IMG/VR virus record: IMGVR_UViG_3300021431_002946
Span: 289,291-353,290 of that record
Reading direction: 5' to 3' (one strand)
Length of the DNA: 64,000 bases
DNA from: a virus
Taxonomy: Duplodnaviria > Heunggongvirae > Uroviricota > Caudoviricetes
Under the pieces are notes generated by a model. The model ran no database searches. It was not told where the DNA came from and worked only from the letters and a program-made list of their open reading frames with translations. Positions 25,307-46,544 of the stretch are shown piece after piece. Numbering within the stretch: the first letter of the stretch is position 1; each line of letters opens with the position of its first letter. A program made the translations under genes and the position numbers.

Positions 25307-25310
25307 AAAT

Positions 25311-27558: not shown

Positions 27559-27586
27559 AAAATAATTTATAAATTTAAAAAAGTTA

Positions 27587-27615
27587 TTTATAAGTTATTA
27601 TGTGTATGATAAAAT
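27587..27615 (+). promoter_or_regulatory. TTTATA-N17-TAAAAT promoter variant (TG-extended)
   Basis: motif read directly. Confidence 0.4.
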
Positions 27616-27657
27616 ATATATATAATAACTTATATTTATAAAAGGAGTTGTTTTTAA

Positions 27658-28164
27658 ATGATTGAACAAATATATAAGAGAGCTGATGGTTCTAAGTACA
27701 CATGTAAAGAAGTAATTTCTACGATTGCAGAATTTATTGCTAAAAATCCTGATTATGAGTACGAACTTACTGTAGGTACAGACTCTCAGACTTTCGCAGA
27801 TCATACTAAGATTGTAGAAGTTATTGCTCTTCATAGACTTGGTCACGGTGGTATTTACTTTTATCATATTGATTATGTTGAAAAGTTTAGAACACTTAGA
27901 GATAAGATTTATGAAGAAACAGCAAGATCTCTTGAAGTATCTAAAGATATGCTACTTGATGTTGCTGTAATTCTTGATGAAAAAGGAATAAACATTGACG
28001 ATATTAATGTTCACTTCCAAATTCATTGCGATATTGGTACATCTGGTAAGACAAAAGAACTTATTAAGGAAATCGTTGGTTGGGTAACATCTGAAGGTTA
28101 CGACTGCCTTATTAAACCTGACTCTTATACTGCAAACGCTATTGCAGATAGATATTCTAAGTAA
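27658..28164 (+). CDS. YkuK/DUF458-like RNase H-fold protein (tentative)
   Basis: VGTDSQ motif near the N-terminus and ~165 aa length. Confidence 0.35.
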   Translation: MIEQIYKRADGSKYTCKEVISTIAEFIAKNPDYEYELTVGTDSQTFADHTKIVEVIALHRLGHGGIYFYHIDYVEKFRTLRDKIYEETARSLEVSKDMLLDVAVILDEKGINIDDINVHFQIHCDIGTSGKTKELIKEIVGWVTSEGYDCLIKPDSYTANAIADRYSK

Positions 28165-28167
28165 GAT

Positions 28168-28203
28168 CACTGGTTATGTGTAATAGCATAACCAGTTTTT
28201 ATT
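28168..28203 (+). terminator. intrinsic terminator
   Basis: ACTGGTTATG..CATAACCAGT + T5. Confidence 0.7.
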
Positions 28204-28230
28204 TACGTATAATTTTTTATATGATATAAT
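28202..28230 (+). promoter_or_regulatory. TTTACG-N17-TATAAT promoter
   Basis: exact consensus. Confidence 0.6.
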
Positions 28231-28257
28231 ATATAAAATTTAATTAGGAGATTAATT

Positions 28258-28764
28258 ATGTATATACCTGCAAATGAAGAAGAAAGAAAATATCTTGAAA
28301 AATATGATCCTAATAAGTATGCAAAGCCTTGTGTAACTGTTGATCTTATTGTTTATATTAAGGGTTTAGGTTTACTTCAGGTAAAGAGAGGCAATTATCC
28401 TTATAAGGATTATTGGGCATTGCCTGGAGGTTTTCTTGATGTTGGTAAAGAAAATACAGAAGAAGCTGCAATAAGAGAACTTAAAGAAGAAACTAATCTT
28501 GACGTAAATGTTGATCAGCTTACACTTGTTGGAGTATATAGTAATCCTGAAAGAGACCCTAGAGATCATGTAGTAGATATAGTATACACAATTGAGCTTG
28601 ATAGTTCTTATATAGATAAAGTAAAAGCTGGAGATGATGCTAAAGAAACAAGATTTGTTCAGTTAAATAGAGGTCCTGTTACTGATGATCCTACATATAG
28701 TAAAGAACTGCCTATGGCATTTGATCATAATAAGATTATTAAAGATTGGATGAATAAAAGATGA
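28258..28764 (+). CDS. NUDIX hydrolase (ADP-ribose/NAD pyrophosphatase-like)
   Basis: Nudix box GGFLDVGKENTEEAAIRELKEETNL. Confidence 0.85.
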   Translation: MYIPANEEERKYLEKYDPNKYAKPCVTVDLIVYIKGLGLLQVKRGNYPYKDYWALPGGFLDVGKENTEEAAIRELKEETNLDVNVDQLTLVGVYSNPERDPRDHVVDIVYTIELDSSYIDKVKAGDDAKETRFVQLNRGPVTDDPTYSKELPMAFDHNKIIKDWMNKR

Positions 28765-29387
28765 CTCGTACAATAGATCCGTCAAATATACCATCTTCGT
28801 CTGGTTATAATTTTGGAAAACCTAATTGGACTACGCTTATTAATTCTGGTAAGTGGAATTCAAGTATGAGTTCAAAATGTTCTGCGTGGGTTACTAGTCC
28901 TTATCAAAAGATAAAGTCAAATAATAATTCACAAGAAATGGTTAATAAAGATAAATTTACTCCTTGTTTGATTGGAGTAAAAACAGGTCATTATATTGAA
29001 GTAATTAAGTCTTTAAATGAAGGCAAGTTAAATAAAACTGGTAAAATACTTTTAAAGTATTATAAAGATATTAAAAATATTGATAAGTTAATAAATAATG
29101 GAACGATAAAAAAAGTTACAGAATATGCAGAGGACATAGAAAAAGTTAATAAAACATTTGATATTCAAAATTATTGTACAATTAAAGAAGTTATAGATTT
29201 TGCATCTAAAAGTAAAATTTCAATTATTTATATTTATGATGTAGATTTTGGTCAATGGTTTGTAAATGCAACAACAATTTCATTAGCAGATTATTCTTTT
29301 TATAATTTTTATAATTCTGTATCAATTACTTTAGATGATTCTGATAGTGCAAGATTTGTTTTATTAAAGGATTTGCTTAATTATTAA
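28761..29387 (+). CDS. hypothetical protein
   Basis: 208-aa ORF overlapping the upstream stop. Confidence 0.5.
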   Translation: MTRTIDPSNIPSSSGYNFGKPNWTTLINSGKWNSSMSSKCSAWVTSPYQKIKSNNNSQEMVNKDKFTPCLIGVKTGHYIEVIKSLNEGKLNKTGKILLKYYKDIKNIDKLINNGTIKKVTEYAEDIEKVNKTFDIQNYCTIKEVIDFASKSKISIIYIYDVDFGQWFVNATTISLADYSFYNFYNSVSITLDDSDSARFVLLKDLLNY

Positions 29388-29558
29388 TGTTAATAACTAA
29401 AATAAAAGATAATATGTTAGATTTTCCTTGTATATTTGCAGTTAAAGATGGTATCTATTTTAAATAACTGTAATATTGTATTTTATGATGATAGTCAAGA
29501 CGGTTTTATAAATTTAAATGATTTATATAATATATTAAGTAAATAAGGAGTTAAAATT

Positions 29559-29705
29559 ATGAACATTGAAGAACTTTTAAACAAAATACAAAATTTTAAT
29601 GAATTTACTGCAGAAGAGAAAGCATTTTTGATACAAGCTGTAGCGGACGCTGAGAATTATAAAAGCAGAGCTAATCAAGATGAAGATATTTTTTATGGTG
29701 ATTAA
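29559..29705 (+). CDS. small hypothetical protein (48 aa)
   Basis: AAGGAG RBS; not in the ORF track. Confidence 0.4.
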   Translation: MNIEELLNKIQNFNEFTAEEKAFLIQAVADAENYKSRANQDEDIFYGD

Positions 29706-29708
29706 AAT

Positions 29709-30080
29709 ATGAAAACAGTTGCATTACTATTTATTATTCTTGCATTTATTGGATTATTTATTGTCTTATTAGCTAATACAACTAAGTTTGGTGAAATTGG
29801 AATTGGACTATTTGTATTAGGTTTAGCAGGATTTGCATTTAATATGTTAATTTTTGGATCAAATAAAATTCCTAGATTAGAAATACATGAATATACTTCA
29901 CCATATTATAATATTGCACAAATGGCGGAAGAAAATAAAGCAAAGATAGAAAATGTAACTTGTAATGAGAGATTAGTTTATACTAGAAATAAGAGAACTA
30001 ATGAAACTGAATGGATTTATTATAAACTTGATGATAGATTAATTGCTAAAGAAACTGAAGCTACTAAAAAGAAAAAATAA
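29709..30080 (+). CDS. small membrane protein (2 TM)
   Basis: hydrophobic N-terminal half. Confidence 0.5.
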   Translation: MKTVALLFIILAFIGLFIVLLANTTKFGEIGIGLFVLGLAGFAFNMLIFGSNKIPRLEIHEYTSPYYNIAQMAEENKAKIENVTCNERLVYTRNKRTNETEWIYYKLDDRLIAKETEATKKKK

Positions 30081-30092
30081 GGAGTTAGTTAT

Positions 30093-30512
30093 ATGATAAA
30101 TAGTTTTAAGGGCGAATATTATTTTTTGTCTAATTTTTATGAAGTGCCTGTTTTCTTTGATGGAATTCAATATAAAAATTCAGAAGCAGCATTTCAAGCA
30201 CAGAAATGTGAAAATTTTGAAGATAGAAAAGCATTTAGTCAATTAAATGCATCTGAAGCAAAACTTAAAGGTAGAAGAGTTAAGTTAAGATCTGATTGGG
30301 AATCAGTTAAGATTGATCTTATGACTAAGATCGTAGAAGCGAAGTTTACTCAAAATAAAGAACTTGCTCAAAAGCTCATTAATACTGGTTCTGAATATCT
30401 TGAAGAAGGTAATCATTGGGGAGATAAAGTTTGGGGAACGGTTAACGGAATAGGTCAAAATAATCTTGGCAAGATTCTTATGCAAATAAGAGATAAATTG
30501 AAAAATGGTTAA
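30093..30512 (+). CDS. NADAR-domain protein (YbiA-like ADP-ribose processing hydrolase)
   Basis: FLSNFY..FDGIQY..SEAAFQAQK..DWESVK..HWGDK aligns closely with E. coli YbiA. Confidence 0.85.
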   Translation: MINSFKGEYYFLSNFYEVPVFFDGIQYKNSEAAFQAQKCENFEDRKAFSQLNASEAKLKGRRVKLRSDWESVKIDLMTKIVEAKFTQNKELAQKLINTGSEYLEEGNHWGDKVWGTVNGIGQNNLGKILMQIRDKLKNG

Positions 30513-30522
30513 TTAAAAATTA

Positions 30523-30551
30523 TTTACAAGTAACCAAAATTAGTATAAAAT
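30523..30551 (+). promoter_or_regulatory. TTTACA-N17-TAAAAT promoter
   Basis: motif read directly. Confidence 0.5.
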
Positions 30552-30636
30552 AATATCAATACAAATTTTGGAGGTATACTATGAAATGTTAGTTTTGTGG
30601 AAGTAAGGGAATTTTAATTAATGAAAGGAAAAAGAA

Positions 30637-31656
30637 ATGTCAAGAAATTTTAATTTTTCAGAACTAAACTCAAATAGAAATAAGATGCCTATAATTGCTA
30701 AGCTGATTATAGCAGGTATTATTATTGTTCTATTAATTATTTGCGGGTTTAGATGTTTTTATTCAGTAAATGAGCAGCATAATGCAGTAGTAACTCAGTT
30801 TGGTACTGTACTTAAGGTAGATACTGCAGGTTTCTATTTTAAGGCACCTTGGCAGTCAGTAAAGAAAGTTGATATGACTACGCATGGTACGCCAATTGGT
30901 TATTCAATTCAAGATGGTCAGAATATTCCTAATACAGATGATGGTATTATGATTACAGAAGATTACAACTTCTTGAATATTGACTTTTATATGGAATATG
31001 CTGTATCAGATCCTATTGCATATTTGTATAATACAAAAAATCCTGAACTTGTTTTAAGAAGTATTGCTCAGGCAAATATTAGAACTATTGTTTCTAACTA
31101 TACAGTTGATGAAGCAATGACAACTGCAAAGGGACAGATTCAGGCAGATATTAAACAGGCAATTATTGATGAGCTTGATAAGAATAATATCGGTCTTAAG
31201 ATTATCAATATTACAATTCAGGACTCAGAACCTCCTAAGGATGAAATTAAAGCTGCATTCCAGTCTGTAGAAAATGCAAAGCAGAATGCAGATACTGCAA
31301 TGAATAAGGCTAAGGAATATCAGAATAGTCAGCTTCCTGCAGCTCAGGCTAAAGCTGATAATATTGTTAAGCAGGCTGAAGCTGATAAGGCTGCAAGAAT
31401 TGCAGAAGCTAAAGGTCAGGTTGAAAGATTTAATAAGATGTATGAAGAATATAAGCAGTTTCCTCTTGTAACTAAGACAAGACTTTTCTATGAAAAGATG
31501 GAAAAGGTACTGCCTGGTTGTAAGATTATTATTACAGATGGAAAGACTTCTACTGTATATCCATTGGATTCTTTTACAAAGTCTAATACAAAACCGCCTT
31601 ATGCAACATCTAATACAACAACTGATACGACTACAACTGATGGAGGAAATGGTTAA
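30637..31656 (+). CDS. hflK: SPFH/band-7 protein, HflK-like
   Basis: N-terminal TM, SPFH core, Q/A-rich coiled coil, S/T-rich tail. Confidence 0.7.
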   Translation: MSRNFNFSELNSNRNKMPIIAKLIIAGIIIVLLIICGFRCFYSVNEQHNAVVTQFGTVLKVDTAGFYFKAPWQSVKKVDMTTHGTPIGYSIQDGQNIPNTDDGIMITEDYNFLNIDFYMEYAVSDPIAYLYNTKNPELVLRSIAQANIRTIVSNYTVDEAMTTAKGQIQADIKQAIIDELDKNNIGLKIINITIQDSEPPKDEIKAAFQSVENAKQNADTAMNKAKEYQNSQLPAAQAKADNIVKQAEADKAARIAEAKGQVERFNKMYEEYKQFPLVTKTRLFYEKMEKVLPGCKIIITDGKTSTVYPLDSFTKSNTKPPYATSNTTTDTTTTDGGNG

Positions 31657-31657
31657 T

Positions 31658-32533
31658 ATGAAGAAGTATATAATTGGAATTTTAGCAGTTATTGCAGTAC
31701 TTATTGGAATTATTATCTTCTTGGCTTCTGCATATACAGTAAAGACCAAGGAATCTGCAATTGTAGTAAGACTTGGTAAAGCTCAGACAATTGTAACTGA
31801 GACTGGTCTTCATACACATACACCTTTTATTGAGTCAACAGTAAAGATTTATATGGGTGAAGTTTTGTATGATATGCCTAAGTCAGATGTAATTACTTCA
31901 GATAAGAAATCAATGATTGCAGATAATTATGTTATTTGGGAAGTTACAGATCCTTTGAAGTATTACCAGACACTTGGTGGTGTTAAGGGTAGAGCAGAAG
32001 AAAGAGTTGAAGCTGCAGTTTATAATGCAACTAAGAACACAATTTCTTCAATGACTCAGGAAGAAATTATTGCTGCAAGAGGTATGACTCTTACAAATGC
32101 AATTACAACAGCGTCTAATTCTGATATTGCTCAGTATGGTATTAATATTAAAATTGCTGAAATTAAGGCGCTTGATCTTCCTGACAATAACAAAGCTGCA
32201 GTTTATAATAGAATGATTTCTGAAAGACAGAATATTGCAGCAGGTTATAAGGCGCAGGGTGATAGAGAAGCACAGATTGTTATAAATGAAACAGATAAGC
32301 AGGTTGCAATTATAATTGCTGATGCTGAAGCAAAGGCTGCAATTTCTAGAGCTGAAGGCGAAGCTGAGTACATGAAGATTTTGTCAGCTGCTTATAATGA
32401 TAAGGATAAGGCTGCATTCTATAATTATCTTAGAGGTCTTGATGCTCTTGAAGCTCTTGCAAAGTCAGACTCTACAATCATTCTTGATAAGAACTCTGAA
32501 TATGCAAAGATTCTTTATGGAATTAGCAAGTAA
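31658..32533 (+). CDS. hflC: SPFH/band-7 protein, HflC-like
   Basis: RBS-supported ATG at 31658 (the 31490 TTG/ATG extension is rejected); TM + SPFH domain. Confidence 0.7.
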   Translation: MKKYIIGILAVIAVLIGIIIFLASAYTVKTKESAIVVRLGKAQTIVTETGLHTHTPFIESTVKIYMGEVLYDMPKSDVITSDKKSMIADNYVIWEVTDPLKYYQTLGGVKGRAEERVEAAVYNATKNTISSMTQEEIIAARGMTLTNAITTASNSDIAQYGINIKIAEIKALDLPDNNKAAVYNRMISERQNIAAGYKAQGDREAQIVINETDKQVAIIIADAEAKAAISRAEGEAEYMKILSAAYNDKDKAAFYNYLRGLDALEALAKSDSTIILDKNSEYAKILYGISK

Positions 32534-32556
32534 AAATAATTTTATATTATAATGAA

Positions 32557-32586
32557 AGAGCCTATTTTATATAGGCTCTTTTTTAT
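32557..32586 (+). terminator. intrinsic terminator
   Basis: AGAGCCTAT..ATAGGCTCT + T7. Confidence 0.7.
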
Positions 32587-32615
32587 TTACAATTTGATTA
32601 CAATGATATTATAAT
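32586..32615 (+). promoter_or_regulatory. TTTACA-N18-TATAAT promoter
   Basis: motif read directly. Confidence 0.55.
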
Positions 32616-32754
32616 ATTTTTAATGAAGTAAATTATAAAGAATTTAAGAAGTTTATTTGTATTATGAATGAAAATATACAAATATATGGATCAGAACAAG
32701 CATTCATTATGAATGCTATAGAGTATGACTGCTATATTTTAAAGGTTAAATGAT

Positions 32755-33216
32755 ATGGATATTGGTAGTGGAAATGGTTATCCAGCTGGAAGTTTATCTA
32801 ACTTTGCACCTCATAGATTTATAATTGATGGAGTAGAATGCGCTTCTATGGAAGGCTTTTTACAGTCATTGAAATTTAGCAATCCTGACATGCAAAAAGA
32901 AGTTTGTAAGTTAGTAGGTAGAGCAGCTAAATCTAAAGGTATTAATAAAAACTGGCAGCAAAAACAGATTCTTTATTGGCAAGGAAAAACCTATAAGAGA
33001 AATAGTCAAGAATATCAAGATTTACTTGATAAAGCTTTTAATGCTTTAGCTGAAAATACATCATTTCAAAAAGCATTATTGGCTACTGAAAATGCTACTT
33101 TGACTCATAGTAAAGGTAAAAATAAAATTACAGAAACTGTTTTAACTACTAGAGAATTTATTTCTAGATTAAATAGAATAAGAAGTGAATTAAAGAATAA
33201 AGATAATACTAAGTAA
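32755..33216 (+). CDS. second, divergent NADAR-domain protein
   Basis: SLSNFAPHRFIIDGVECASMEGFLQSLKF and FQKALLATENATLTHS align with YbiA. Confidence 0.7.
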   Translation: MDIGSGNGYPAGSLSNFAPHRFIIDGVECASMEGFLQSLKFSNPDMQKEVCKLVGRAAKSKGINKNWQQKQILYWQGKTYKRNSQEYQDLLDKAFNALAENTSFQKALLATENATLTHSKGKNKITETVLTTREFISRLNRIRSELKNKDNTK

Positions 33217-33241
33217 GAAACAAAAATTAGGTGGTGACAAT

Positions 33242-33394
33242 ATGAATTATTGGAAAGAAAAAATAGAATCAGAAGATTTTGTACTTTTTTATCATAGTAA
33301 AGATAGTTGGAGTCAAAATGATACTTATACAGCACCAAACATCACTAGAGAAAAAAGCATGAACTATATATTAATTAAAGGACTATTTAATTAA
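33242..33394 (+). CDS. small hypothetical protein (50 aa)
   Basis: AGGTGGTGA RBS; not in the ORF track. Confidence 0.35.
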   Translation: MNYWKEKIESEDFVLFYHSKDSWSQNDTYTAPNITREKSMNYILIKGLFN

Positions 33395-33422
33395 AAATAT
33401 AGTAATATAAGGAGTCCATAAT

Positions 33423-34223: not shown

Positions 34224-34251
34224 AATAAAATCAAAACTAAAATATATAAAA

Positions 34252-34280
34252 ATGGTCTACTTTTGTAGATCATTTTTTAT
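34252..34280 (+). terminator. intrinsic terminator
   Basis: ATGGTCTAC..GTAGATCAT + T7. Confidence 0.65.
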
Positions 34281-34308
34281 TTACGCATGTTATTATAAAA
34301 GATATAAT
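34279..34308 (+). promoter_or_regulatory. TTTACG-N18-TATAAT promoter
   Basis: motif read directly. Confidence 0.55.
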
Positions 34309-34452
34309 AAAATTAATTTTATAATAAAGGAGTCTAATTATGCAGTTTGGAATATCTTTTATTTTAACAATTTTTGTAATTTTGATTATTATTTTTACTA
34401 GAGGATAAAAAAATAATTCCATTTTAGTATAATATATGATATAATAGATTAT

Positions 34453-35629: not shown

Positions 35630-35633
35630 AATA

Positions 35634-39371: not shown

Positions 39372-39926
39372 ATGGATTTAAATCAAATTTCAAAGTTTAT
39401 AAGTTTGATTCTTCGACATAAACCTGAAACAATAAATATTACGCTTGACTCACATGGTTGGGCAAATGTAGATGAACTTATTAATGGTATTGCTAAGCAA
39501 TATAAAGGTTTTAATATGAATATGCTTGAAGAAATTGTCAGAACAGACAATAAACAGAGATATTCATTTAATGAAGATAAAACAAAAATTAGAGCTAATC
39601 AAGGACATTCTATTAAAGTAGATGTTGAACTTGAAGAAAAAGAACCGCCTACAGTATTATATCATGGTACGGCAACAAAGTCAATAAATAGTATTTATGC
39701 TCAAGGTCTTAAATCAATGTCAAGACTTTATGTACATCTTTCAAAAGATATTGAAACTGCAACTAAAGTCGGTTTGAGACATGGAGAACTTGCAATTATT
39801 GTAATTGATGCACAAAAAATGTATAAAGATGGTTATAAGTTCTATCTTTCTGCAAATGGTGTATGGCTTACAGAAAAAGTTCCAGTAGAATACTTTAAAG
39901 AATTGTTATATGGTAATTCAATATGA
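39372..39926 (+). CDS. kptA: RNA 2'-phosphotransferase Tpt1/KptA
   Basis: ILRHKPE.., [18 protein letters not shown] motifs of the KptA family. Confidence 0.85.
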
Positions 39927-40845: not shown

Positions 40846-42063
40846 ATGAAGTTACCTCAGATTATTAACAGCCTTTTAGAGAGTGATTTGTACAAATTTT
40901 CTATGGGTCAGGCAATTATGATTAAGCATCCTGAATATATGACTACTTGGTCTTTTAAGTGTAGAAATAAGGATGTTAAGTTTACACCTGAAATGGTAGA
41001 AGAGATTAAGGAACAGATTAAGGCATATTGTAAGCTTAGATTTACTGAAGACGAACTTGAATATTTGAATAATATTCCTTGGTTTAAGGGAAGTTATATT
41101 AATTTTCTTAGACTTTGGCAGCCTAGATATGAAGATTTTGAAATTGGAACTGATGCAGAATGTGGATTGGCAGTTGAAACTAAGGGAACTTGGCTCAATA
41201 CATCTATGTATGAAATTCCTACTCTTGCAATTGTAAATGAAGTTTATTTTAGAATGGCTTATGATTATGATAAGTTGTTTGAAAGCTTTAAGAAGAGACT
41301 TGACGAGAAGTATGAAAAGCTTCATAGTTCTAAGTGGTATCTTGGAGTATTTTCTGAGTTTGGTCTTAGACGTAGACTTTCTGCAGAAGCTCAGGAACTT
41401 GCTATAGAAAAGTTTAGTCATCTTAATGATACAATGCATTGTTCTAGCAAGTTTATTGGTACATCTAATGTATATCTTGCAAAGAAGTATGGACTTACTC
41501 CTGTAGGTACAATGGCACATGAATGGATCATGTGTGTAGGTCAGGGAGATCATTCTCATAATCCTGCATATTCTAATAGATTTGCTCTTAATGATTGGGT
41601 AGATGTATATGGAATTAAGAATGGTATTGCACTTACTGATACAATTACAACAGATTGTTTCCTTAGAGATTTTGATGATAGATTTGCAACATTGTTTAGT
41701 GGTGTAAGACATGACTCTGGTGACCCTATTGAATGGGGCGAAAAGATGATTAAGCACTACGAAAAGCTTGGAATTAATCCTAAAACAAAGACTTTGTTGT
41801 TCTCTGATAGTTTGAATTTTGAAAAAGCAGATGCTATTTGGAGACATTTCCATGATAGAATTAATGTTGCTTTTGGTATTGGTACTTATATTGCAAATGA
41901 TACTGATGTACCTGCACTTAATATTGTTATGAAGACTACTTTGTGCAATGGTATGGATGTTGCTAAGGTTTCTGATACACCTGGTAAGGGTATGTGCAAG
42001 AATCCTGATTATGTTGATTATCTCCAGAGAACAATTAAATGGAGAATGGAAAATGATAAGTAA
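40846..42063 (+). CDS. pncB: nicotinate phosphoribosyltransferase
   Basis: GTSNVYLAKKYGLTPVGTMAHEW and GVRHDSGDPIEWGEKMIKHYEKLGINPKTKTLLFSDSL closely match E. coli PncB. Confidence 0.9.
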   Translation: MKLPQIINSLLESDLYKFSMGQAIMIKHPEYMTTWSFKCRNKDVKFTPEMVEEIKEQIKAYCKLRFTEDELEYLNNIPWFKGSYINFLRLWQPRYEDFEIGTDAECGLAVETKGTWLNTSMYEIPTLAIVNEVYFRMAYDYDKLFESFKKRLDEKYEKLHSSKWYLGVFSEFGLRRRLSAEAQELAIEKFSHLNDTMHCSSKFIGTSNVYLAKKYGLTPVGTMAHEWIMCVGQGDHSHNPAYSNRFALNDWVDVYGIKNGIALTDTITTDCFLRDFDDRFATLFSGVRHDSGDPIEWGEKMIKHYEKLGINPKTKTLLFSDSLNFEKADAIWRHFHDRINVAFGIGTYIANDTDVPALNIVMKTTLCNGMDVAKVSDTPGKGMCKNPDYVDYLQRTIKWRMENDK

Positions 42064-42071
42064 GTGATAAT

Positions 42072-42587
42072 ATGGCAAATATGTATTTAGTTTGTGGAAT
42101 TAGTGGCGGTGGTAAGTCTGTCTTAACGGATAGACTTATTACTGCTAATCCATATTTAACAAAATTTGATCCTGATATGTATTATGCTAAAATTAATGGT
42201 GATGAATGTGACAGATCAAATTGGTTTGATGTATGGATGTCATTATATCAAGATATTCATAAAGCAGAATTAGCAAATAAAGATATAATTGTTACAACAA
42301 ATTCATTAACTGTATCGCAAAGAACTCAGTTTTTAGAATGGTTTCCAACATTTACACATCATATTTTATGGGTAACTGCACCAAAAGAACAATGTCTTGA
42401 AGGTAATAATAGCAGACGCAGACATGTACCTGAAAAGAGATTATTACAGCAATGGGAAGAAATGGAATTTCCTAATGCAAGTGAAAAAGGTTGGGAAACT
42501 ATAACTCAAATAACTAATTTCTGGGAAGAAGATAATTATATTATTTTTAATCTTAAAGGTGATATTAAAAATTATTTAATTTTTTAA
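42072..42587 (+). CDS. P-loop kinase (ribosylnicotinamide-kinase-like or polynucleotide-kinase-like; uncertain)
   Basis: Walker A GISGGGKS; 171 aa. Confidence 0.5.
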   Translation: MANMYLVCGISGGGKSVLTDRLITANPYLTKFDPDMYYAKINGDECDRSNWFDVWMSLYQDIHKAELANKDIIVTTNSLTVSQRTQFLEWFPTFTHHILWVTAPKEQCLEGNNSRRRHVPEKRLLQQWEEMEFPNASEKGWETITQITNFWEEDNYIIFNLKGDIKNYLIF

Positions 42588-42675
42588 AACGGAGTATTAT
42601 AATATGTATAAGATTTCCGATTTTCTTTTTAATCATGAACCGCTAAATAATATAAACAAGAAGGAAGAATAAATA

Positions 42676-43029
42676 ATGGATTGGCATATACCTGAAATTC
42701 AGAAAGATATGAAAACATTTCTTAAAACTATTAATATAGATAATGCTGTAAATGAAAAGTGTAAGTTTATGGTTCATTGGGAATGTATTGATAATAGAAT
42801 AAATGTTTGTATTAGATGTGATTTTAAGAATTATGGAGAATATGATCTTTATCCTTATCAAAAGATAAGTTCTATTGAAAATATAGAGCTTCCTTCTGAT
42901 ATTTTCAAAAAGATCGAAGTAATATCAGGTTCAATTCTTGACTCCTTTGATGAATATATTATGAATTATGCAAAAGAAAAGAATGTAACAATTAAAAGAT
43001 TAAATAATGAAATGTGGCAAGTTTTGTAA
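42676..43029 (+). CDS. hypothetical protein
   Basis: 117-aa ORF. Confidence 0.45.
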   Translation: MDWHIPEIQKDMKTFLKTINIDNAVNEKCKFMVHWECIDNRINVCIRCDFKNYGEYDLYPYQKISSIENIELPSDIFKKIEVISGSILDSFDEYIMNYAKEKNVTIKRLNNEMWQVL

Positions 43030-43041
43030 GGAGGTATAAAT

Positions 43042-43551
43042 ATGAAGAAACTTTTAGTAATTGTAGATATGCAGAATGATTTTGTAACTGGAGCTCTTGC
43101 AAATCCAGATGCAAAGAAGATTATAAAGAAGATTAAGAAGTATGCAGAATCTTTTGATGGAGATATTGTTTTCACAAGAGATACACATACTAAGAATTAT
43201 ATGGAGACTCAGGAAGGTAAGAATTTGCCTGTACCACATTGTATTAGAGGAACTGAAGGTTGGCAGATTGTAGATGAACTTAAAGATATTCCTGCAAAGT
43301 ATTATTTTAATAAGCATACATTTGGTTCTACTGATCTTGCAAAGGTGATTAGGAGAGAATATGCAGATGCAGAAATTTATTTTTGTGGAACATGTACAGG
43401 AATTTGTGTAATTAGTAATGCAATGCTTGCAAAGGCAAGTGCTCCTGAGGCTAAGATCAATGTTCTTGGTAAGCTTTGTGCTTGTGTTACACCTGAATCT
43501 CATCATACAGCACTTGAGGCAATGAAGATGTGTCAGATTAAGGTAATTTAA
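43042..43551 (+). CDS. pncA: nicotinamidase (isochorismatase family)
   Basis: VDMQNDF, conserved Cys in CGTCTGICV. Confidence 0.8.
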   Translation: MKKLLVIVDMQNDFVTGALANPDAKKIIKKIKKYAESFDGDIVFTRDTHTKNYMETQEGKNLPVPHCIRGTEGWQIVDELKDIPAKYYFNKHTFGSTDLAKVIRREYADAEIYFCGTCTGICVISNAMLAKASAPEAKINVLGKLCACVTPESHHTALEAMKMCQIKVI

Positions 43552-43563
43552 TAGAGGACTAAT

Positions 43564-44232
43564 ATGTTTAAGAAAGTATCATTTACTGGTATTGATAATA
43601 AAACTAATATAAAGAGACTATTAGAAATTGCTGAAAAATATCCAAACACTGAATTTGGTTTCTTGATTTCTGAAGCAAATACTAATAAGAATATCAATAA
43701 TAGATACCCAAACTTAGTTTTGCTGCAACAACTTAAGAATAAGAATATCAATCTTGCTTTACATGTCTGTGGAAAGCTTGCACGAACAGTTGCTAAGACA
43801 GGATCGTTGGGTTGTGTAAAGGAATTTATGGGTTCTTATTTTGATATGTTTCAGAGAATTCAGTTAAATCTTGTTGGTAATACAGTTGCTATTCCAATTA
43901 CAAATACTTATGGAAAGCAAGTTATTATTCAAACAAATCTTGACGAACCTAAGTCAAAGGCTAATTATGAGTTATATGAACAAACTAATGTTGAGAATAT
44001 AGTTTATTTGTCAGATAAATCTGGTGGTCACGGTGAAGTAACTGATTTTGATTTCTTTGATAAATATCAAGGTTTTGCAGGTGGTCTTAATCCAGAAAAT
44101 ATTCTTAATAGAAAAGCTGATATTGATATGTTAGTTGATTATGATTATTGGCTTGATATGGAATCTGGTGTAAGAACAAATGATTGGTTTGATCTTGACA
44201 AAGTAGAAGATATTTGTAGAAAGTTATTTTAA
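43564..44232 (+). CDS. hypothetical protein
   Basis: 222-aa ORF. Confidence 0.5.
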   Translation: MFKKVSFTGIDNKTNIKRLLEIAEKYPNTEFGFLISEANTNKNINNRYPNLVLLQQLKNKNINLALHVCGKLARTVAKTGSLGCVKEFMGSYFDMFQRIQLNLVGNTVAIPITNTYGKQVIIQTNLDEPKSKANYELYEQTNVENIVYLSDKSGGHGEVTDFDFFDKYQGFAGGLNPENILNRKADIDMLVDYDYWLDMESGVRTNDWFDLDKVEDICRKLF

Positions 44233-44234
44233 AT

Positions 44235-44699
44235 ATGATAATTGCTTTAACTGGACATAGAGAACAAAGATTAAATTTACCTAGTGATGTTGCCTTGGAT
44301 GATTGGAAAAGTATAAGGCAATGGATTAGACAACAAATTATTGATAATAAAGCTGATACTGTTTTATCTGGTATGGCAGGTGGTTCTGATCTTGCTATTG
44401 CCTATGAAGTAGTTCAAATGAAAAAAGAAGGTTATCCAATCAAACTTACTTGTGTATTTCCTTGTAAAAACTATAATGTTTCAAATCAATATTATAAATA
44501 TATAACTAGTAATGCAGATAATATAGTTGAGATACATAATGAATGGTTTAAAGGTTGTGATAATGATCGAGATCAATATATGGTAGATAATTGTGATATA
44601 CTTCTTGCTATATTTGATGGAAATAAAAATGGTGGAGTATATAGTACAATAAGAAAAGCAGAGAAGAAAAATAAGAAAATAATTTATTATCCTATGTGA
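44235..44699 (+). CDS. YpsA/DUF1273-like SLOG-family protein (tentative)
   Basis: IALTGHR..SGMAGGSD..CDILLAIFDG pattern of the YpsA family. Confidence 0.45.
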   Translation: MIIALTGHREQRLNLPSDVALDDWKSIRQWIRQQIIDNKADTVLSGMAGGSDLAIAYEVVQMKKEGYPIKLTCVFPCKNYNVSNQYYKYITSNADNIVEIHNEWFKGCDNDRDQYMVDNCDILLAIFDGNKNGGVYSTIRKAEKKNKKIIYYPM

Positions 44700-44760
44700 G
44701 GTAATGCATATGTACGATAATTGTGATGATTTTTATGGAAAATTTAAGGAGAAATAATTT

Positions 44761-45186
44761 ATGAGTGTTTTAGATCGATTAACTCAAATACAAAATGGTT
44801 GGATGATCGCAATGTTTGCAGGTATGGGGTTTCTTTTGTTTTTTATTATTATTATTGGAATACTGTTTGCTTGTATAATTAAAAATAATCACGCATTGGA
44901 TAAGGCATTTACAGTAGTAACCGTTGCTAGTATATTTTGTGTGATTGAAATCTTTGTTAGTCTTGCTGGACTTTTTATTTCAAGCAGTCAAGTGTCTAAG
45001 ACCACATATTATGCTGACAGATACGATATAAAACAAATGGCTAATGATTATAATGCCAGAATTATTGAAGATGATAGAGAGCATAATCAGTATTTAGTAC
45101 ATTATGAAGGATATGGAATGGAAGAGTGGGTATATTATATAGGAAAGCCTGACCCTCAAGCCCAATATTTAATACAGAAGAGCTGA
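44761..45186 (+). CDS. membrane protein, hypothetical
   Basis: two N-terminal TM helices. Confidence 0.5.
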   Translation: MSVLDRLTQIQNGWMIAMFAGMGFLLFFIIIIGILFACIIKNNHALDKAFTVVTVASIFCVIEIFVSLAGLFISSSQVSKTTYYADRYDIKQMANDYNARIIEDDREHNQYLVHYEGYGMEEWVYYIGKPDPQAQYLIQKS

Positions 45187-45251
45187 TAAAGTTTGTGAAG
45201 AATATAAGCAACACATATCTTGAATTATTTATGCTTTAAGGAGTAAAAAGA

Positions 45252-45623
45252 ATGGAATATAAACCTTTGAATATGTTTATGAAACAAACAGATGAATTAA
45301 AGAAACTTATTGCTGAGCACCCAGATTATCCAATTGTAGTACTTTGTGGAAATGAAGTAGTATGTGATGATAGTTGGGGATATTGGTATGCTCCTCGACT
45401 CTCTTTTGCTTTGACAGAGATACTTGATTGTGAGCAAGCGGTTAATGATGAAAAGACCTATGTGGATCGAGATGAACTGGAAGAGGACATCAGATATAAC
45501 TTTGAATGCTGTGACGAATACGATAATTTGTCTGAAGAAGAGTTTGATAAGTTGGTAGAAGCTGAAATGAAAAAGTATGACCCTTATTGGCGAGATGTTA
45601 TTGCAATTTATGCAGATGTATAA
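45252..45623 (+). CDS. acidic hypothetical protein
   Basis: 123-aa ORF with GGAG RBS. Confidence 0.5.
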   Translation: MEYKPLNMFMKQTDELKKLIAEHPDYPIVVLCGNEVVCDDSWGYWYAPRLSFALTEILDCEQAVNDEKTYVDRDELEEDIRYNFECCDEYDNLSEEEFDKLVEAEMKKYDPYWRDVIAIYADV

Positions 45624-45628
45624 AAATT

Positions 45629-45662
45629 ATTTACAAATAGTACTAATTTATAGTATTATAAT
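45629..45662 (+). promoter_or_regulatory. TTTACA promoter with TATAAT-like -10
   Basis: motif read directly. Confidence 0.45.
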
Positions 45663-45715
45663 CATAAAAATATTAAATTTTGTCCACTTTATGGTAAGGA
45701 ATTGCAGGAAGATCT

Positions 45716-45889
45716 ATGACAGATAAAAGAATTAGAATGGAATGTCCATTTTGTCATACAAAAGCTGAAGAGATTCAACTTGTGGCTATAGGTAATTATG
45801 TAGAAGTAAGATGTCCTAATAATAAATGTGCAGTAAAAATTACAGGCACAAGTAAGCAAGATGTAATAGATAGATGGAATAGAAGATGA
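45716..45889 (+). CDS. lar: Lar-family restriction alleviation protein (57-aa zinc ribbon)
   Basis: MTDKRIRMECPFCH..VRCPNNKCAV..DRWNRR: two CxxC pairs and a C-terminal WNRR, hallmark of the Lar family; not in the ORF track. Confidence 0.6.
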   Translation: MTDKRIRMECPFCHTKAEEIQLVAIGNYVEVRCPNNKCAVKITGTSKQDVIDRWNRR

Positions 45890-46179
45890 AGTATATCGTA
45901 TATCAAAATTCTAGAACTGAAGGTATTAAATTAAATATCATAGGTATTTATGATACTGAACAAATGGCAAAAGCAGTTCAAAATAAAGTAAGATCTAAAT
46001 TACTTGAAAAAACAAATTTAGTACAAGATACTGAGATTTATATTATGCCAATTGAAGAAAATAAAACTTATTCATTTGAGTATAGTGTTGGAGATAATGA
46101 TATTAAGATTAATGGTCAATTATCTGAAGTAAAGAATTTAATAAATAAAACAATAGATACAGACTATCTTCCATTTTGA
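45886..46179 (+). CDS. hypothetical protein
   Basis: 97-aa ORF overlapping the lar stop (ATGA). Confidence 0.5.
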   Translation: MKYIVYQNSRTEGIKLNIIGIYDTEQMAKAVQNKVRSKLLEKTNLVQDTEIYIMPIEENKTYSFEYSVGDNDIKINGQLSEVKNLINKTIDTDYLPF

Positions 46180-46193
46180 AAGGAGAAAAAATT

Positions 46194-46301
46194 ATGTTAG
46201 AAAAAATTATAATATTTGTAGTTGGATTTTTTGTTGGAGCATGCGTAGGTATTGTTTTAATTGCTTTAGTTTCAGCAAATAGACAGTCTGATGAAAAGTA
46301 A
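46194..46301 (+). CDS. small membrane peptide (35 aa)
   Basis: GGAGAAAAAATT-ATG RBS, one TM helix. Confidence 0.4.
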   Translation: MLEKIIIFVVGFFVGACVGIVLIALVSANRQSDEK

Positions 46302-46544
46302 ATATGAAATTTGTATTTAATCCAGTTACATATGATATAACTTAGCTTAACTTTATGTATATGTTCAGAGATAGTGAACCATTAATAGATTTTGATACTT
46401 GGTTAATTAAAAATAAGTATGTTTGGAAAGTAAATAATAAAATTTTTATAAATTTTAATGAAATGTATAAATATATGATAGAAAAATATAGTACTAATAT
46501 TGGTTTTGATATAATACTACTTGAAGATGATTGAGGTTAATAAT

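What the first reader, a model, noticed from the sequence alone, without database searches (positions are those of the whole stretch)
27658..33216. ADP-ribose/NAD-processing gene set next to the salvage pathway: two NADAR paralogs, a Nudix hydrolase and (at 39372) Tpt1/KptA
Both 30093-30512 and 32755-33216 align by eye to E. coli YbiA (NADAR). NADAR enzymes reverse DarT-type ADP-ribosylation of guanine in DNA, so phage-borne copies are plausible anti-DarTG factors. The Nudix protein could clear ADP-ribose or cyclic-ADPR signals. Tpt1 is NAD-dependent and removes RNA 2'-phosphates; phages carry it with RNA-repair functions. Two diverged NADARs suggest two distinct substrates or defence targets. 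Together with the NAD salvage genes this is a coherent NAD/ADP-ribose counter-defence island.
Basis: partly seen in the sequence, partly recalled or inferred. Interest (0 to 1): 0.65.

Follow-up and report, generated by a model that had tools for sequence, protein, structure and literature searches.

The report
NAD and ADP-ribose genes in a rumen jumbo phage
A large rumen phage carries several already known kinds of NAD/ADP-ribose genes, including a homologue of the phage T4 enzyme that strips ADP-ribose off DNA to beat the DarT defence. They are separate genes loosely grouped in a variable region, not one conserved island.

Summary
- 30093-30512 is a YbiA-type NADAR.
- 32755-33216 is a NADAR-fold protein of Pfam family Phage_30_3. 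That is the family of T4 gp30.3, now called AdfN, a published anti-DarTG1 DNA ADP-ribosylglycohydrolase.
- 28258-28764 is a Nudix of the NadM/NrtR ADP-ribose-pyrophosphatase clade.
- 39372-39926 is Tpt1/KptA.
- A PncA-PncB-NadD/NadE salvage set follows.

Catalytic residues are conserved in both NADARs and in Tpt1.

The two NADARs belong to different subfamilies (26% identity; third catalytic residue Glu versus His), so they are not recent paralogs.

The "island" is not a conserved unit. No NADAR lies within 10 kb of PncB in any of 80 related viral loci. In the two large-contig relatives that carry both genes, salvage lies 67-70 kb from the NADAR/Tpt1 genes. Unrelated genes (RNase H-like DUF458, HflK/HflC, DUF1963, PgaCD, a paralog array) sit between the NAD genes.

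The AdfN gene arrived as a 756-bp cassette that carries fragments of its former neighbours. The cassette is missing from a 93-96% identical relative.

All components and their co-occurrence in jumbo phages are already published (2022-2025). This is a new member of a known kind, of modest interest.

The parts
27658..28164 (+). RNase H-like protein (DUF458/YkuK family). It lies inside the finding's span but has no evident link to NAD or ADP-ribose.
   Evidence: Pfam PF04308 E 7.7e-47. No homologue near PncB in 80 related loci.
28169..28230 (+). Terminator-like hairpin (28169-28196) followed directly by the promoter-like motif TTTATTTACG-N17-TATAAT (28198-28230). Probable start of the Nudix transcription unit (inferred).
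   Evidence: The motif occurs 6 times on the + strand against 0.02 expected.
28258..28764 (+). Stand-alone Nudix hydrolase of the NadM/NrtR (ADP-ribose pyrophosphatase) clade. RELKEE (73-78) is intact. There is a one-residue insertion in the GX5E part of the Nudix box. It has no wHTH domain, so it is not an NrtR regulator.
   Evidence: Pfam NUDIX 1.1e-16. Best NCBIfam matches are the NrtR Nudix domain and NadM-Nudix. PDB matches: 2YYH, 2FML, 2QJT, 3GZ5, 2QJO. Residue positions.
28761..29387 (+). 208-aa protein of unknown function. Its start overlaps the Nudix stop codon by 4 nt.
   Evidence: No Pfam or NCBIfam match; weak phrog_1987 hit.
29709..30080 (+). 123-aa predicted membrane protein, 13 nt upstream of NADAR1. 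The pairing is kept in L104 and L109.
30093..30512 (+). YbiA-type NADAR ('NADAR1') with catalytic residues E31, K38 and E105 and ADP-ribose contacts R61, W69, K73, D111 and W114.
   Evidence: PF08719 93.4 bits. 2B3W E 1.2e-15 and 8BAU E 5e-8. TIGR02464 73.9 against a cut-off of 73.7. The residues are invariant in 20 homologues; positions.
30637..32533 (+). HflK-like (30637-31656) and HflC-like (31658-32533) SPFH pair lying between the two NADARs. Not related to NAD.
   Evidence: Pfam Band_7. TIGR01933 194.8 against 159.4 and TIGR01932 153.2 against 134.4.
32554..32615 (+). Terminator-like hairpin (32554-32582) followed by the promoter-like TTTACA-N18-TATAAT (32586-32615). The AdfN cassette begins 2 nt after the -10 box.
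32618..33373 (+). 756-bp inserted cassette. It holds the last 45 or so codons of a methyltransferase gene, the AdfN-like gene, and a 5' fragment of a 138-aa gene. In relative L104 these 756 bp are replaced by 2 bp.
32755..33216 (+). AdfN-like (T4 gp30.3 family) NADAR-fold protein with E33, K40 and H118.
   Evidence: PF08010 197 bits. 36% identity to T4 gp30.3, E 9e-27. Residues invariant. NADAR fold. hhalign against NADAR1.
33242..33394 (+). 50-aa ORF. Its first 29 residues are a remnant (79% identity) of a longer gene that lies downstream of AdfN in relative L102.
39372..39926 (+). Tpt1/KptA RNA 2'-phosphotransferase. The R15-H16-R74-R118 tetrad is present.
   Evidence: PF01885 1.2e-53. NF002014 267 against 239. 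7KW8 E 4.5e-54. Positions.
40846..47762 (+). NAD+ salvage region. PncB 40846-42063; AAA_33 kinase 42072-42587; isochorismatase/PncA-like 43042-43551; YpsA-type SLOG 44235-44699; NadD+NadE fusion 46521-47762 (the gene caller starts it at 46545).
   Evidence: The cassette is conserved in 76-77 of 80 loci.

Best explanation
The window is part of the accessory region of a >200-kb rumen or gut jumbo phage. All genes are on one strand, GC is about 29%, and many genes have their own promoter-like motif. The host is probably a Gram-positive Firmicute. The region carries several independently acquired genes of already described kinds that deal with NAD+ and ADP-ribose. They are loosely grouped and are not one operon or a conserved island.

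(1) 32755-33216 belongs to the T4 AdfN (gp30.3) family. It most likely cleaves the N-glycosidic bond between ADP-ribose and guanine in nucleic acid, using E33, K40 and H118. That would undo modification of phage DNA by DarT1-type host ADP-ribosyltransferases. It reached this position as a 756-bp cassette cut out of a radical-SAM / methyltransferase / AdfN locus and dropped just behind a promoter.

(2) 30093-30512 is a YbiA-type NADAR with a complete ADP-ribose pocket. It most likely removes base-linked ADP-ribose from DNA or RNA, with a different specificity.

(3) The Nudix enzyme most likely splits free ADP-ribose into AMP and ribose-5-phosphate.

(4) Tpt1 uses NAD+ to remove RNA 2'-phosphates.

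(5) PncA, PncB and NadD-NadE rebuild NAD+ from nicotinamide by the Preiss-Handler route.

Shown here: family membership, catalytic residues, fold, gene order, and the insertion. Inferred: all enzyme activities, the substrates, the counter-defence role and the host.
For: - Family and residue evidence.
- Published function of the AdfN family: T4 gp30.3 de-ADP-ribosylates guanine in DNA and defeats DarTG1, and E36A and K43A mutants are impaired (PMC11825919, PMC11125620).
- NADARs of all subfamilies hydrolyse guanine-ADP-ribose on DNA and RNA (PMC11543638, PMC11833690).
- Insertion:
  - L104 is 93-96% identical, has the same gene order and lacks the 756 bp.
  - The cassette ends carry a methyltransferase 3' remnant and a 5' remnant of a downstream gene. 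Both are intact in L102. The methyltransferase is also intact in L105 and L001.
- Not a conserved unit: 0 of 80 PncB loci have a NADAR within 10 kb; 67-70 kb apart in the two large-contig relatives.
- Jumbo-phage origin:
  - Relatives sit on IMG/VR contigs of 250-400 kb.
  - The exact Tpt1 sequence occurs on two contigs of 0.2-1 Mb.
  - There are two tRNA genes.
  - Relative L105 carries a DNA polymerase A and a clamp loader.
- Separate transcription units: terminator-plus-promoter motifs at 28169-28230 and 32554-32615. The motif is 6 against 0.02 expected.
Against: - No enzyme activity was measured.
- No DarT or other ADP-ribosyltransferase was seen in the window, and the host genome is unknown. 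So the target of either NADAR is unproven.
- In E. coli, T4 AdfN needed the T-even phage context to work, so homology does not guarantee function here.
- NADAR1 just reaches the NCBIfam cut-off of a 'riboflavin intermediates N-glycosidase' model (73.9 against 73.7).
- The clustering is loose but real. Eight or nine NAD-related genes lie within 20 kb. NADAR1, AdfN and Tpt1 also lie within 9 kb of each other in L001, L002, L105 and L106. Some functional coupling therefore cannot be excluded.
- Promoter-like hits in general are no more frequent than in shuffled sequence (52 against 48).
Confidence: 0.65

Rival explanations
1. A coherent, co-selected NAD/ADP-ribose counter-defence island. The NADARs release ADP-ribose, the Nudix clears it, the salvage genes rebuild NAD+ and Tpt1 consumes it, and the genes are kept together because they work as one pathway.
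For: - All these genes lie within 20 kb on one strand.
- Nudix sits directly beside PncA-PncB in 4 related loci (L036, L040, L097, L099) and Tpt1 within 10 kb in 9.
- Iyer et al. 2022 (PMC9503650) report above-chance co-occurrence of NADAR, Nudix, SLOG and salvage genes in large phages.
Against: - 0 of 80 PncB loci have a NADAR within 10 kb.
- The genes are 67-70 kb apart in the two large-contig relatives.
- AdfN is a recent insertion and is absent from L104.
- HflKC, DUF1963, five paralogs and PgaCD lie between the NAD genes.
- Terminator and promoter motifs split the region.
Confidence: 0.15
2. NADAR1 (30093-30512) is a metabolic N-glycosidase acting on riboflavin-pathway intermediates, as reported for E. 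coli YbiA and plant COG3236 proteins. It would not be a nucleic-acid de-ADP-ribosylase.
For: - TIGR02464 'riboflavin biosynthesis intermediates N-glycosidase' scores 73.9 bits against a cut-off of 73.7.
- JGI names for homologues read 'ribA/ribD-fused uncharacterized protein'.
- In L001 the next gene is an ECF riboflavin-transporter S component.
Against: - No riboflavin genes were found in the window.
- Homologues sit among DNA or RNA metabolism genes of mobile elements: Thg1 and Tpt1, SSB and SbcCD-like genes, TopA, RecJ and a DNA methylase.
- E. coli YbiA itself hydrolyses guanine-ADP-ribose in vitro (PMC11125620).
- The RibU-like neighbour is not present in L105.
Confidence: 0.1
3. The NADARs, the Nudix and the SLOG protein mainly destroy or bind soluble ADP-ribose-derived immune signals (cADPR isomers and the like from Thoeris or TIR systems) rather than repairing nucleic acids.
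For: - This was proposed for phage NADAR, Nudix and SLOG domains by Iyer et al. 2022 (PMC9503650).
- A YpsA-type SLOG gene is present at 44235-44699.
Against: - Every NADAR tested since 2023, including T4 gp30.3, acts on base-linked ADP-ribose in nucleic acids (PMC11543638, PMC11125620, PMC11833690, PMC11825919).
- I found no report of a NADAR acting on cyclic ADPR signals.
- Nothing in the window distinguishes between these substrates.
Confidence: 0.12
4. NADAR1 and Tpt1 belong to an RNA-repair module. With a Thg1-like tRNA 5'-end repair enzyme and an HD/OB nuclease in relatives, they would restore RNAs damaged or ADP-ribosylated by host toxins.
For: - HD/OB, Bax1-I, Thg1, NADAR1, two further genes, then Tpt1 is the gene order in L001, L002, L105 and L106.
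- A Thg1-like gene follows AdfN in L013.
- NADARs remove guanosine-ADP-ribose from RNA (PMC11833690).
- Iyer et al. suggested NADAR may act with KptA (PMC9503650).
Against: - The window has no Thg1, RNA ligase, 2H or Pnkp gene among the ORFs scanned.
- NADARs are inactive on the phosphate-end ADP-ribosylation that Tpt1-type enzymes make (PMC11833690).
- In other lineages the same NADAR family sits with DNA-metabolism genes.
Confidence: 0.1

Closest known systems
Phage T4 gp30.3 = AdfN (anti-DarT factor NADAR), Pfam Phage_30_3 PF08010
   Same: - Full-length homology: 36% identity, E 9e-27, 153 against 152 aa.
- Same Pfam family.
- Catalytic Glu and Lys and the phage-type His are conserved.
- NADAR fold.
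   Different: - It is encoded by a low-GC rumen jumbo phage. A relative of that phage carries a family-A DNA polymerase, so it is probably not T4-like.
- The neighbours differ: T4 gp30.2 is not homologous to the downstream DUF1963 gene.
- Activity and the DarT target are untested.
- T4 AdfN needed the T-even context to work (PMC11825919).
E. coli YbiA / YbiA-subfamily NADARs (PDB 2B3W; P. nicotianae NADAR 8BAU; C. crocatus YbiA antitoxin of YarT)
   Same: - NADAR1 matches 2B3W at E 1.2e-15 and 8BAU at E 5e-8.
- It has the subfamily-defining Glu in the last strand (E105) and all the ADP-ribose contacts.
- It is a bare YbiA domain with no extension.
   Different: - It is phage-borne.
- It is not in a LexA operon and not next to an ADP-ribosyltransferase toxin.
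- Its substrate is unknown.
DarG1 (BC4488-subfamily NADAR antitoxin of DarTG1)
   Same: Same superfamily. It presumably carries out the same chemistry on guanine-ADP-ribose.
   Different: - Neither window protein has the Asp variant of the last-strand residue; they have Glu and His.
- Both are too short (139 and 153 aa) for the DNA-binding N-terminal extension of DarG1.
- No adjacent DarT appeared in the Pfam scans of the neighbours.
NadM-Nudix / NrtR ADP-ribose pyrophosphatase-type Nudix domains
   Same: - The best NCBIfam and PDB matches belong to this clade.
- The REx2EE catalytic core is intact.
- It is one of the two major phage Nudix clades (PMC9503650).
   Different: - It stands alone, with neither the NadM adenylyltransferase nor the NrtR wHTH domain.
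- It has a one-residue insertion in GX5E and Asn in place of the final Gly of the Nudix box.
'NAD-jumbo phages' with Preiss-Handler pncB-nadD-nadE clusters (Microbiome 2024, PMC11662467), and the phage NAD+ reconstitution pathways NARP1, NARP2 and NARP3
   Same: - PncA-PncB-NadD/NadE cassette in a gut or rumen jumbo phage.
- The presumed purpose is the same: keeping NAD+ available during infection.
   Different: - It is not NARP1 (no Adps/Namat), NARP2 (PncB is a nicotinate, not a nicotinamide, phosphoribosyltransferase) or NARP3 (no PnuC/NadR pair found).
- That paper does not mention NADAR, KptA or Nudix.
Tpt1/KptA (Runella slithyformis 7KW8, C. thermocellum 6E3A)
   Same: - E 4.5e-54 to 7KW8.
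- Above the NCBIfam equivalog cut-off.
- The R-H-R-R tetrad is present.
   Different: - It is phage-encoded.
- No RNA ligase partner was seen in the window.

Membership tests
NADAR superfamily (PF08719), for 30093-30512 | Profile match above the curated cut-off | tested here: met
   93.4 bits against 35.1. 2B3W E 1.2e-15.
NADAR superfamily, for 30093-30512 | Catalytic Glu and Lys (PnNADAR E43 and K50) and the ADP-ribose contacts R79, W89, R93, D130 and W133 | tested here: met
   E31, K38, R61, W69, K73 (Arg to Lys), D111 and W114, read from the HMMER alignment to 8BAU. Positions. All are invariant in 20 homologues.
YbiA subfamily of NADARs, for 30093-30512 | Glutamate in the last strand (PnNADAR E125); bare YbiA domain | tested here: met
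   E105 aligns with E125. The protein is 139 aa with no extension.
Riboflavin-intermediate N-glycosidase (TIGR02464), for 30093-30512 | Score above the curated cut-off, and a riboflavin-pathway context | tested here: inconclusive
   73.9 against 73.7 bits. No rib genes were found in the window. A RibU-like neighbour occurs only in L001.
AdfN / Phage_30_3 (PF08010), for 32755-33216 | Profile match above the cut-off and full-length homology to T4 gp30.3 | tested here: met
   197.3 against 36 bits. 36% identity, E 9e-27 over 150 residues.
AdfN / Phage_30_3, for 32755-33216 | Catalytic E36 and K43 of T4 AdfN, and His in the last strand | tested here: met
   E33, K40 and H118 are invariant in A2 (17 sequences including T4) and A3 (20 sequences).
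AdfN / Phage_30_3, for 32755-33216 | NADAR (YbiA-like) fold | tested here: met
   AF2 model with pLDDT 78.7 and pTM 0.76. The Foldseek top three are 2B3W (E 7e-4, TM 0.61), 8BAT and 8BAU. hhalign to the NADAR1 family gives probability 84%.
AdfN / Phage_30_3, for 32755-33216 | Removes ADP-ribose from guanine in DNA and rescues phage from DarTG1 | not testable with these tools
   Needs biochemistry and plaque assays. Known only for the T4, Bas32 and Bas60 proteins (PMC11825919).
DarG1-type (BC4488) antitoxin NADAR, both proteins | Asp in the last strand, an N-terminal DNA-binding extension, and an adjacent darT1 | tested here: not met
   The last-strand residue is Glu (E105) or His (H118). Lengths are 139 and 153 aa. 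No DarT appeared among the neighbours scanned.
Nudix hydrolase, NadM/NrtR ADPR-pyrophosphatase clade, for 28258-28764 | Nudix box GX5EX7REUXEEXGU | tested here: inconclusive
   E65-X7-R73-E74-L-K-E77-E78 is present. However, it reads GX6E (a one-residue insertion relative to 2YYH) and the final Gly is Asn.
Nudix hydrolase, NadM/NrtR clade, for 28258-28764 | Closest relatives are ADPR-specific Nudix domains | tested here: met
   Top NCBIfam hits are the NrtR Nudix domain (1.4e-21) and NadM-Nudix (7e-17). PDB matches: 2FML, 2QJT, 3GZ5, 2QJO.
NrtR transcriptional regulator, for 28258-28764 | C-terminal winged-helix DNA-binding domain | tested here: not met
   The protein is 168 aa and covers only profile positions 4-150 of 245. 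It scores 77 bits against a cut-off of 400.
Tpt1/KptA, for 39372-39926 | Equivalog score and the Arg-His-Arg-Arg catalytic tetrad | tested here: met
   NF002014 267.2 against 239. R15, H16, R74 and R118 align with 7KW8.
Preiss-Handler NAD+ salvage | PncA, PncB, NadD and NadE all present | tested here: met
   - PncB: NF003704 480 against 379.
- NadE: TIGR00552 150 against 63.65, fused to a CTP_transf_like adenylyltransferase domain.
- PncA: only at isochorismatase-family level (96.8 bits). Its nicotinamidase specificity is not shown.
NARP1 / NARP2 / NARP3 | Adps+Namat; Nampt+Nmnat; PnuC+NadR | tested here: not met
   None of these pairs was found in the window. The phosphoribosyltransferase is the nicotinate type.

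The most novel reading that the evidence does not exclude
The AdfN gene is a mobile counter-defence cassette that varies in presence within a natural rumen phage population. That would imply DarT1-like guanine ADP-ribosylation is an active defence in rumen Firmicutes. In addition, the second, YbiA-type NADAR sits beside a Thg1-like enzyme and Tpt1 in relatives. It could define a so far undescribed phage module that repairs ADP-ribosylated or damaged RNA rather than DNA.
Probability: 0.12. Interest if true: 0.55.

Novelty: new member of a known kind. Interest (0 to 1): 0.3.

Why it matters
It extends the T4 AdfN (gp30.3) type of anti-DarT enzyme to uncultivated rumen and gut jumbo phages that are probably not T4-like. 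The literature I read places this type mainly in the T4 superfamily.

It also shows one phage carrying two NADAR subfamilies, and it catches the AdfN gene as a recent cut-and-paste insertion that still carries scraps of its old neighbours. That is a useful natural example of how counter-defence genes move, and it gives candidate enzymes for testing NADAR specificity.

It does not reveal a new mechanism. The gene kinds, their anti-defence role and their co-occurrence with NAD+ salvage in jumbo phages are already published.

Tried and rejected
1. Is the DUF1963 gene downstream of AdfN the counterpart of T4 gene 30.2, which would mean a conserved 30.3-30.2 pair? Rejected: no similarity.
I repeated it with database homologues.
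3. The search for related loci with NADAR1 in viral contigs found nothing. Context was obtained through the look-up of encoding contigs instead.
4. I looked for RNA ligase, 2H, Macro, Thg1 and CinA in the window by Pfam and tblastn. None was found.
5. Could the 622-aa protein upstream (25690-27558) be an Alt-like ADP-ribosyltransferase? There was no Pfam, PHROG, PADLOC or PDB match, so it remains unresolved.
6. General promoter scan: counts do not exceed shuffled sequence (52 against 48). Only the specific extended motif is significant.
7. Is the radical-SAM / methyltransferase / AdfN arrangement general? No. It is confined to the closest clade and absent from L003-L020.
8. Microhomology at the cassette junctions: only a few bases, with no repeats or a recombinase gene. 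The mechanism is unknown.

Full report
What the sequence holds

The window has about 29% GC and every substantial ORF lies on the + strand. Within and near the flagged span, Pfam gives the following:
- 27658-28164: RNase H-like DUF458
- 28258-28764: NUDIX
- 28761-29387 and 29709-30080: no family
- 30093-30512: NADAR
- 30637-31656 and 31658-32533: SPFH/Band 7
- 32755-33216: Phage_30_3
- 33423-34223: DUF1963
- 34453-37472: five tandem paralogs with no family match
- 37491-39338: glycosyltransferase 2 plus PgaD
- 39372-39926: Tpt1/KptA
- 40846-42063: NAPRTase
- 42072-42587: AAA_33 kinase
- 43042-43551: isochorismatase
- 44235-44699: YpsA-type SLOG
- 46521-47762: adenylyltransferase plus NAD synthase

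The span also contains genes unrelated to NAD, and an HflK/HflC-like pair separates the two NADARs (NCBIfam equivalog cut-offs reached).

The two NADARs

NADAR1 (30093-30512) is a plain YbiA-type NADAR.
- It scores 93.4 bits on PF08719.
- It matches the E. coli YbiA structure at E 1.2e-15 and the ADP-ribose-bound P. nicotianae NADAR at E 5e-8.
- I read the HMMER alignment against the residues named by Schuller et al. 2023 (PMC11543638). E43, K50, R79, W89, R93, E125, D130 and W133 of PnNADAR correspond to E31, K38, R61, W69, K73, E105, D111 and W114.
- All of these are invariant in 20 homologues of 62-72% identity.
- The last-strand glutamate places it in the YbiA subfamily.

The second protein (32755-33216) does not reach PF08719. 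It scores 197 bits on Phage_30_3.
- It is 36% identical over its full length to T4 gp30.3 (E 9e-27).
- T4 gp30.3 has been renamed AdfN. It is a NADAR-fold DNA ADP-ribosylglycohydrolase that lets T-even phages escape DarTG1, with E36 and K43 required (PMC11825919). Its in vitro activity on guanine-ADP-ribose was shown independently (PMC11125620).
- Here E33, K40 and the phage-type histidine H118 are invariant in two alignments.
- A profile-profile comparison of the two families aligns E31/K38/E105 with E33/K40/H118 (probability 84%, E 7e-6, 25% identity).

The two proteins are therefore superfamily relatives from different subfamilies. They are not products of a recent duplication.

Nudix, Tpt1 and salvage

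The Nudix protein is closest to the Nudix domains of NrtR and of NadM-Nudix. This is the ADP-ribose-pyrophosphatase clade, which Iyer et al. 2022 list as one of two major phage Nudix clades (PMC9503650).
- The REx2EE core is intact.
- There is a one-residue insertion in GX5E, and an Asn replaces the final Gly.
- It lacks the NrtR DNA-binding domain.

Tpt1 exceeds the NCBIfam equivalog cut-off (267 against 239). It matches 7KW8 at E 4.5e-54 with the Arg-His-Arg-Arg tetrad in place.

PncB is a nicotinate, not a nicotinamide, phosphoribosyltransferase. With the PncA-like amidase and the NadD-NadE fusion, this is a Preiss-Handler route.

What kind of genome this is

- Window 29372-49926 is 100% identical to a 63-kb JGI metagenome contig. 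The exact Tpt1 protein also occurs on two contigs of 0.2-1 Mb.
- Homologues of the AdfN-like gene lie on IMG/VR viral contigs of up to 394 kb.
- A relative carries a clamp loader and a family-A DNA polymerase.
- The window has two tRNA genes.
- Several sample names appear to refer to rumen metagenome studies (STEW19, SHIW14). This reading of the names is mine.
- A sortase, an S26 signal peptidase and a pilin-like protein suggest a Gram-positive host. So do MAG names such as Ruminococcus, Clostridiales and Bacilli attached to homologues. This is inference.

Is it an island?

I fetched 80 viral loci around PncB homologues (76-81% identity) and searched them with all window proteins.
- PncA, PncB and NadD/NadE co-occur in 76-77 of 80 loci.
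- Within 10 kb of PncB, Tpt1 occurs in 9 loci, the SLOG gene in 5, Nudix in 4, and either NADAR in none.
- In the two large contigs that carry both AdfN and PncB, the genes are 67-70 kb apart.

Around AdfN homologues, the closest clade (L001, L002, L105, L106) shows a different and apparently older arrangement. The core order is radical SAM, methyltransferase, AdfN, then HD/OB, Bax1-I, Thg1, NADAR1, two further genes, and Tpt1. CinA lies upstream of this order in L105 and between AdfN and HD/OB in L001.

More distant AdfN loci share none of these neighbours. There are two exceptions: a second NADAR follows AdfN in L012, and a Thg1-like gene follows it in L013.

NADAR1-family genes elsewhere sit beside SSB and SbcCD-like genes. 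They also occur in 276-821-kb plasmid-like contigs beside topoisomerase, RecJ, a DNA methylase and Mob_Pre.

The tight conserved unit is therefore the salvage cassette. The NADARs, Nudix and Tpt1 are accessory genes whose neighbours change. NADAR1, AdfN and Tpt1 do recur near one another within one clade.

The AdfN cassette

Contig L104 is 93-96.5% identical to the window. It has the same order: membrane protein, NADAR1, HflK, HflC, DUF1963, paralogs, PgaCD, Tpt1. It has no AdfN gene.

Base-by-base comparison shows that window 32618-33373 (756 bp) replaces 2 bp of L104.
- The left 137 bp of the cassette encode the tail of a methyltransferase. Read from 32610, the window gives YNIFNEVNYKEFKKFICIMNENIQIYGSEQAFIMNAIEYDCYILKVK*, which matches the last 47 codons of that gene. 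The intact gene precedes AdfN in L102, L103, L105, L001 and L002.
- The right part encodes the first 29 residues (79% identity) of a 138-aa gene found downstream of AdfN in L102.

A gene flanked by fragments of its former neighbours argues for insertion here rather than deletion in L104.

The insertion point lies 2 nt after the -10 box of a terminator-plus-promoter element (32554-32615). The extended motif TTTATTTAC-N16-19-TATAAT occurs six times on the + strand against 0.02 expected, including upstream of the Nudix gene.

Only trivial microhomology is seen at the junctions. Both cassette-plus contigs (L109, L110) and a cassette-minus contig (L104) exist in public metagenomes.

How it most likely works

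Shown here: family membership, intact active sites, fold, gene order, and the insertion event.

Inferred from published biochemistry of the families:
- The AdfN-like enzyme hydrolyses guanine-linked ADP-ribose placed on phage DNA by a DarT1-type toxin.
- NADAR1 does similar chemistry with another specificity. NADARs of all subfamilies act on guanine-ADP-ribose in DNA and RNA but differ in which toxin they rescue from (PMC11125620, PMC11833690).
- The Nudix enzyme degrades free ADP-ribose.
- Tpt1 consumes NAD+ to remove RNA 2'-phosphates.
- The Preiss-Handler enzymes regenerate NAD+.

Nothing here shows that the host has a DarT.

The rival readings cannot be excluded, but each has weaker support:
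- a metabolic riboflavin glycosidase role for NADAR1, which sits at the TIGR02464 cut-off;
- degradation of immune signals (PMC9503650);
- an RNA-repair module (Thg1-NADAR1-Tpt1 in relatives).

NADARs are reported to be inactive on the phosphate-end ADP-ribosylation that Tpt1-type enzymes produce (PMC11833690). That argues against a simple Tpt1-NADAR writer-eraser pair.

Comparison with what is known, and verdict

Each element has a published precedent:
- AdfN as an anti-DarTG1 factor (2025) and NADAR biochemistry (2023-2026).
- Co-occurrence of NADAR, Nudix, SLOG, KptA and salvage genes in jumbo phages (2022).
- Preiss-Handler clusters in gastrointestinal jumbo phages (2024, PMC11662467), although that paper does not mention NADAR, KptA or Nudix.
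- NARP1, NARP2 and NARP3.

Four points go modestly beyond the papers I read:
- A gp30.3-type AdfN occurs in uncultivated rumen or gut jumbo phages that are probably not T4-like. The family has 4,544 database homologues at E <= 0.001, mostly unnamed.
- One genome carries two NADAR subfamilies.
- The AdfN cassette varies in presence and carries flanking gene remnants.
- Within one clade there is a Thg1-NADAR-Tpt1 neighbourhood.

Interest is about 0.3.

Noticed in passing
window 7453-23731: A surface or pilus-like module in a phage genome. It comprises a DUF7601 pilin-like protein (7453-8808), an S26 signal peptidase (8895-9401), a sortase (9398-10114) and a 4120-aa ORF with 11 DUF285 repeats plus Flg_new repeats (10114-22476). 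A protein with an N-terminal methylation motif follows (22706-23731). A PcfJ-like protein lies at 480-2057.
   Followed up: no
window 30637-32533: A phage-encoded pair that reaches the NCBIfam equivalog cut-offs for the FtsH modulators HflK (194.8 against 159.4) and HflC (153.2 against 134.4). It lies between the two NADAR genes and is conserved in L104 and L109.
   Followed up: partly
window 37491-39338: A single 615-aa protein that fuses PgaC (poly-beta-1,6-GlcNAc synthase, TIGR03937 488 against 422) to PgaD (52.5 against 31.45). It sits directly upstream of Tpt1. An exopolysaccharide synthase in a phage is unusual.
   Followed up: no
window 34453-37472; L104 4063-7606: Five tandem paralogs of about 200 aa with no match in Pfam (two scanned) or PADLOC (one scanned). 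The 93-96% identical relative L104 has six, so the copy number varies.
   Followed up: no
window 2744, 23782, 28198, 32582, 34276, 54341 (+ strand): The extended promoter-like motif TTTATTTAC-N16-19-TATAAT occurs six times, all intergenic and on the + strand, against 0.02 expected. Two copies directly follow terminator hairpins (28169-28196 and 32554-32582). Looser versions (ATTTAC[AG] plus TATAAT) precede about 20 more genes.
   Followed up: partly
window 25233-25386: Two adjacent tRNA genes: tRNA-Gln(TTG) and tRNA-Lys(TTT).
   Followed up: no
window 32618-33373 versus L104 2982-2983: The AdfN gene sits in a 756-bp insertion carrying a 3' methyltransferase remnant and a 5' remnant of another gene. 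Cassette-plus (L109, L110) and cassette-minus (L104) genomes both occur in public metagenomes.
   Followed up: yes
L102 8460-10447; L105 4239-6233; L001 8286-10462: In the closest clade, AdfN directly follows a radical-SAM gene and a methyltransferase gene. This conserved triad could point to a nucleic-acid modification function linked to AdfN. It is absent from the more distant AdfN loci L003-L020.
   Followed up: partly
L107, L108, L115 (contigs of 276-821 kb): NADAR1-family genes (62-65% identity) lie in very large plasmid-like contigs beside a topoisomerase, RecJ, a DNA methylase, Mob_Pre and a GGDEF protein. This NADAR family is therefore shared between jumbo phages and other mobile elements.
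   Followed up: no
window about 45716-45889: A 57-aa ORF with a weak Lar_restr_allev (restriction alleviation) Pfam hit, lying between the SLOG gene and NadD-NadE. The hit comes from the precomputed annotation of the identical contig L109.
   Followed up: no
window 32745-33160: Within the 7.5-kb query 27000-34500, only the AdfN-like gene showed nucleotide-level similarity (66-68%) to cultured phages. All the listed hits are T4-like phages of Enterobacteria, including Yersinia phiR1-RT and Enterobacter and Klebsiella phages.
   Followed up: partly
window 25690-27558: A 622-aa ORF just upstream of the finding with no match in Pfam, PHROGs, PADLOC or the PDB. I wondered whether it might be an Alt-like ADP-ribosyltransferase, but nothing supports that.
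   Followed up: partly
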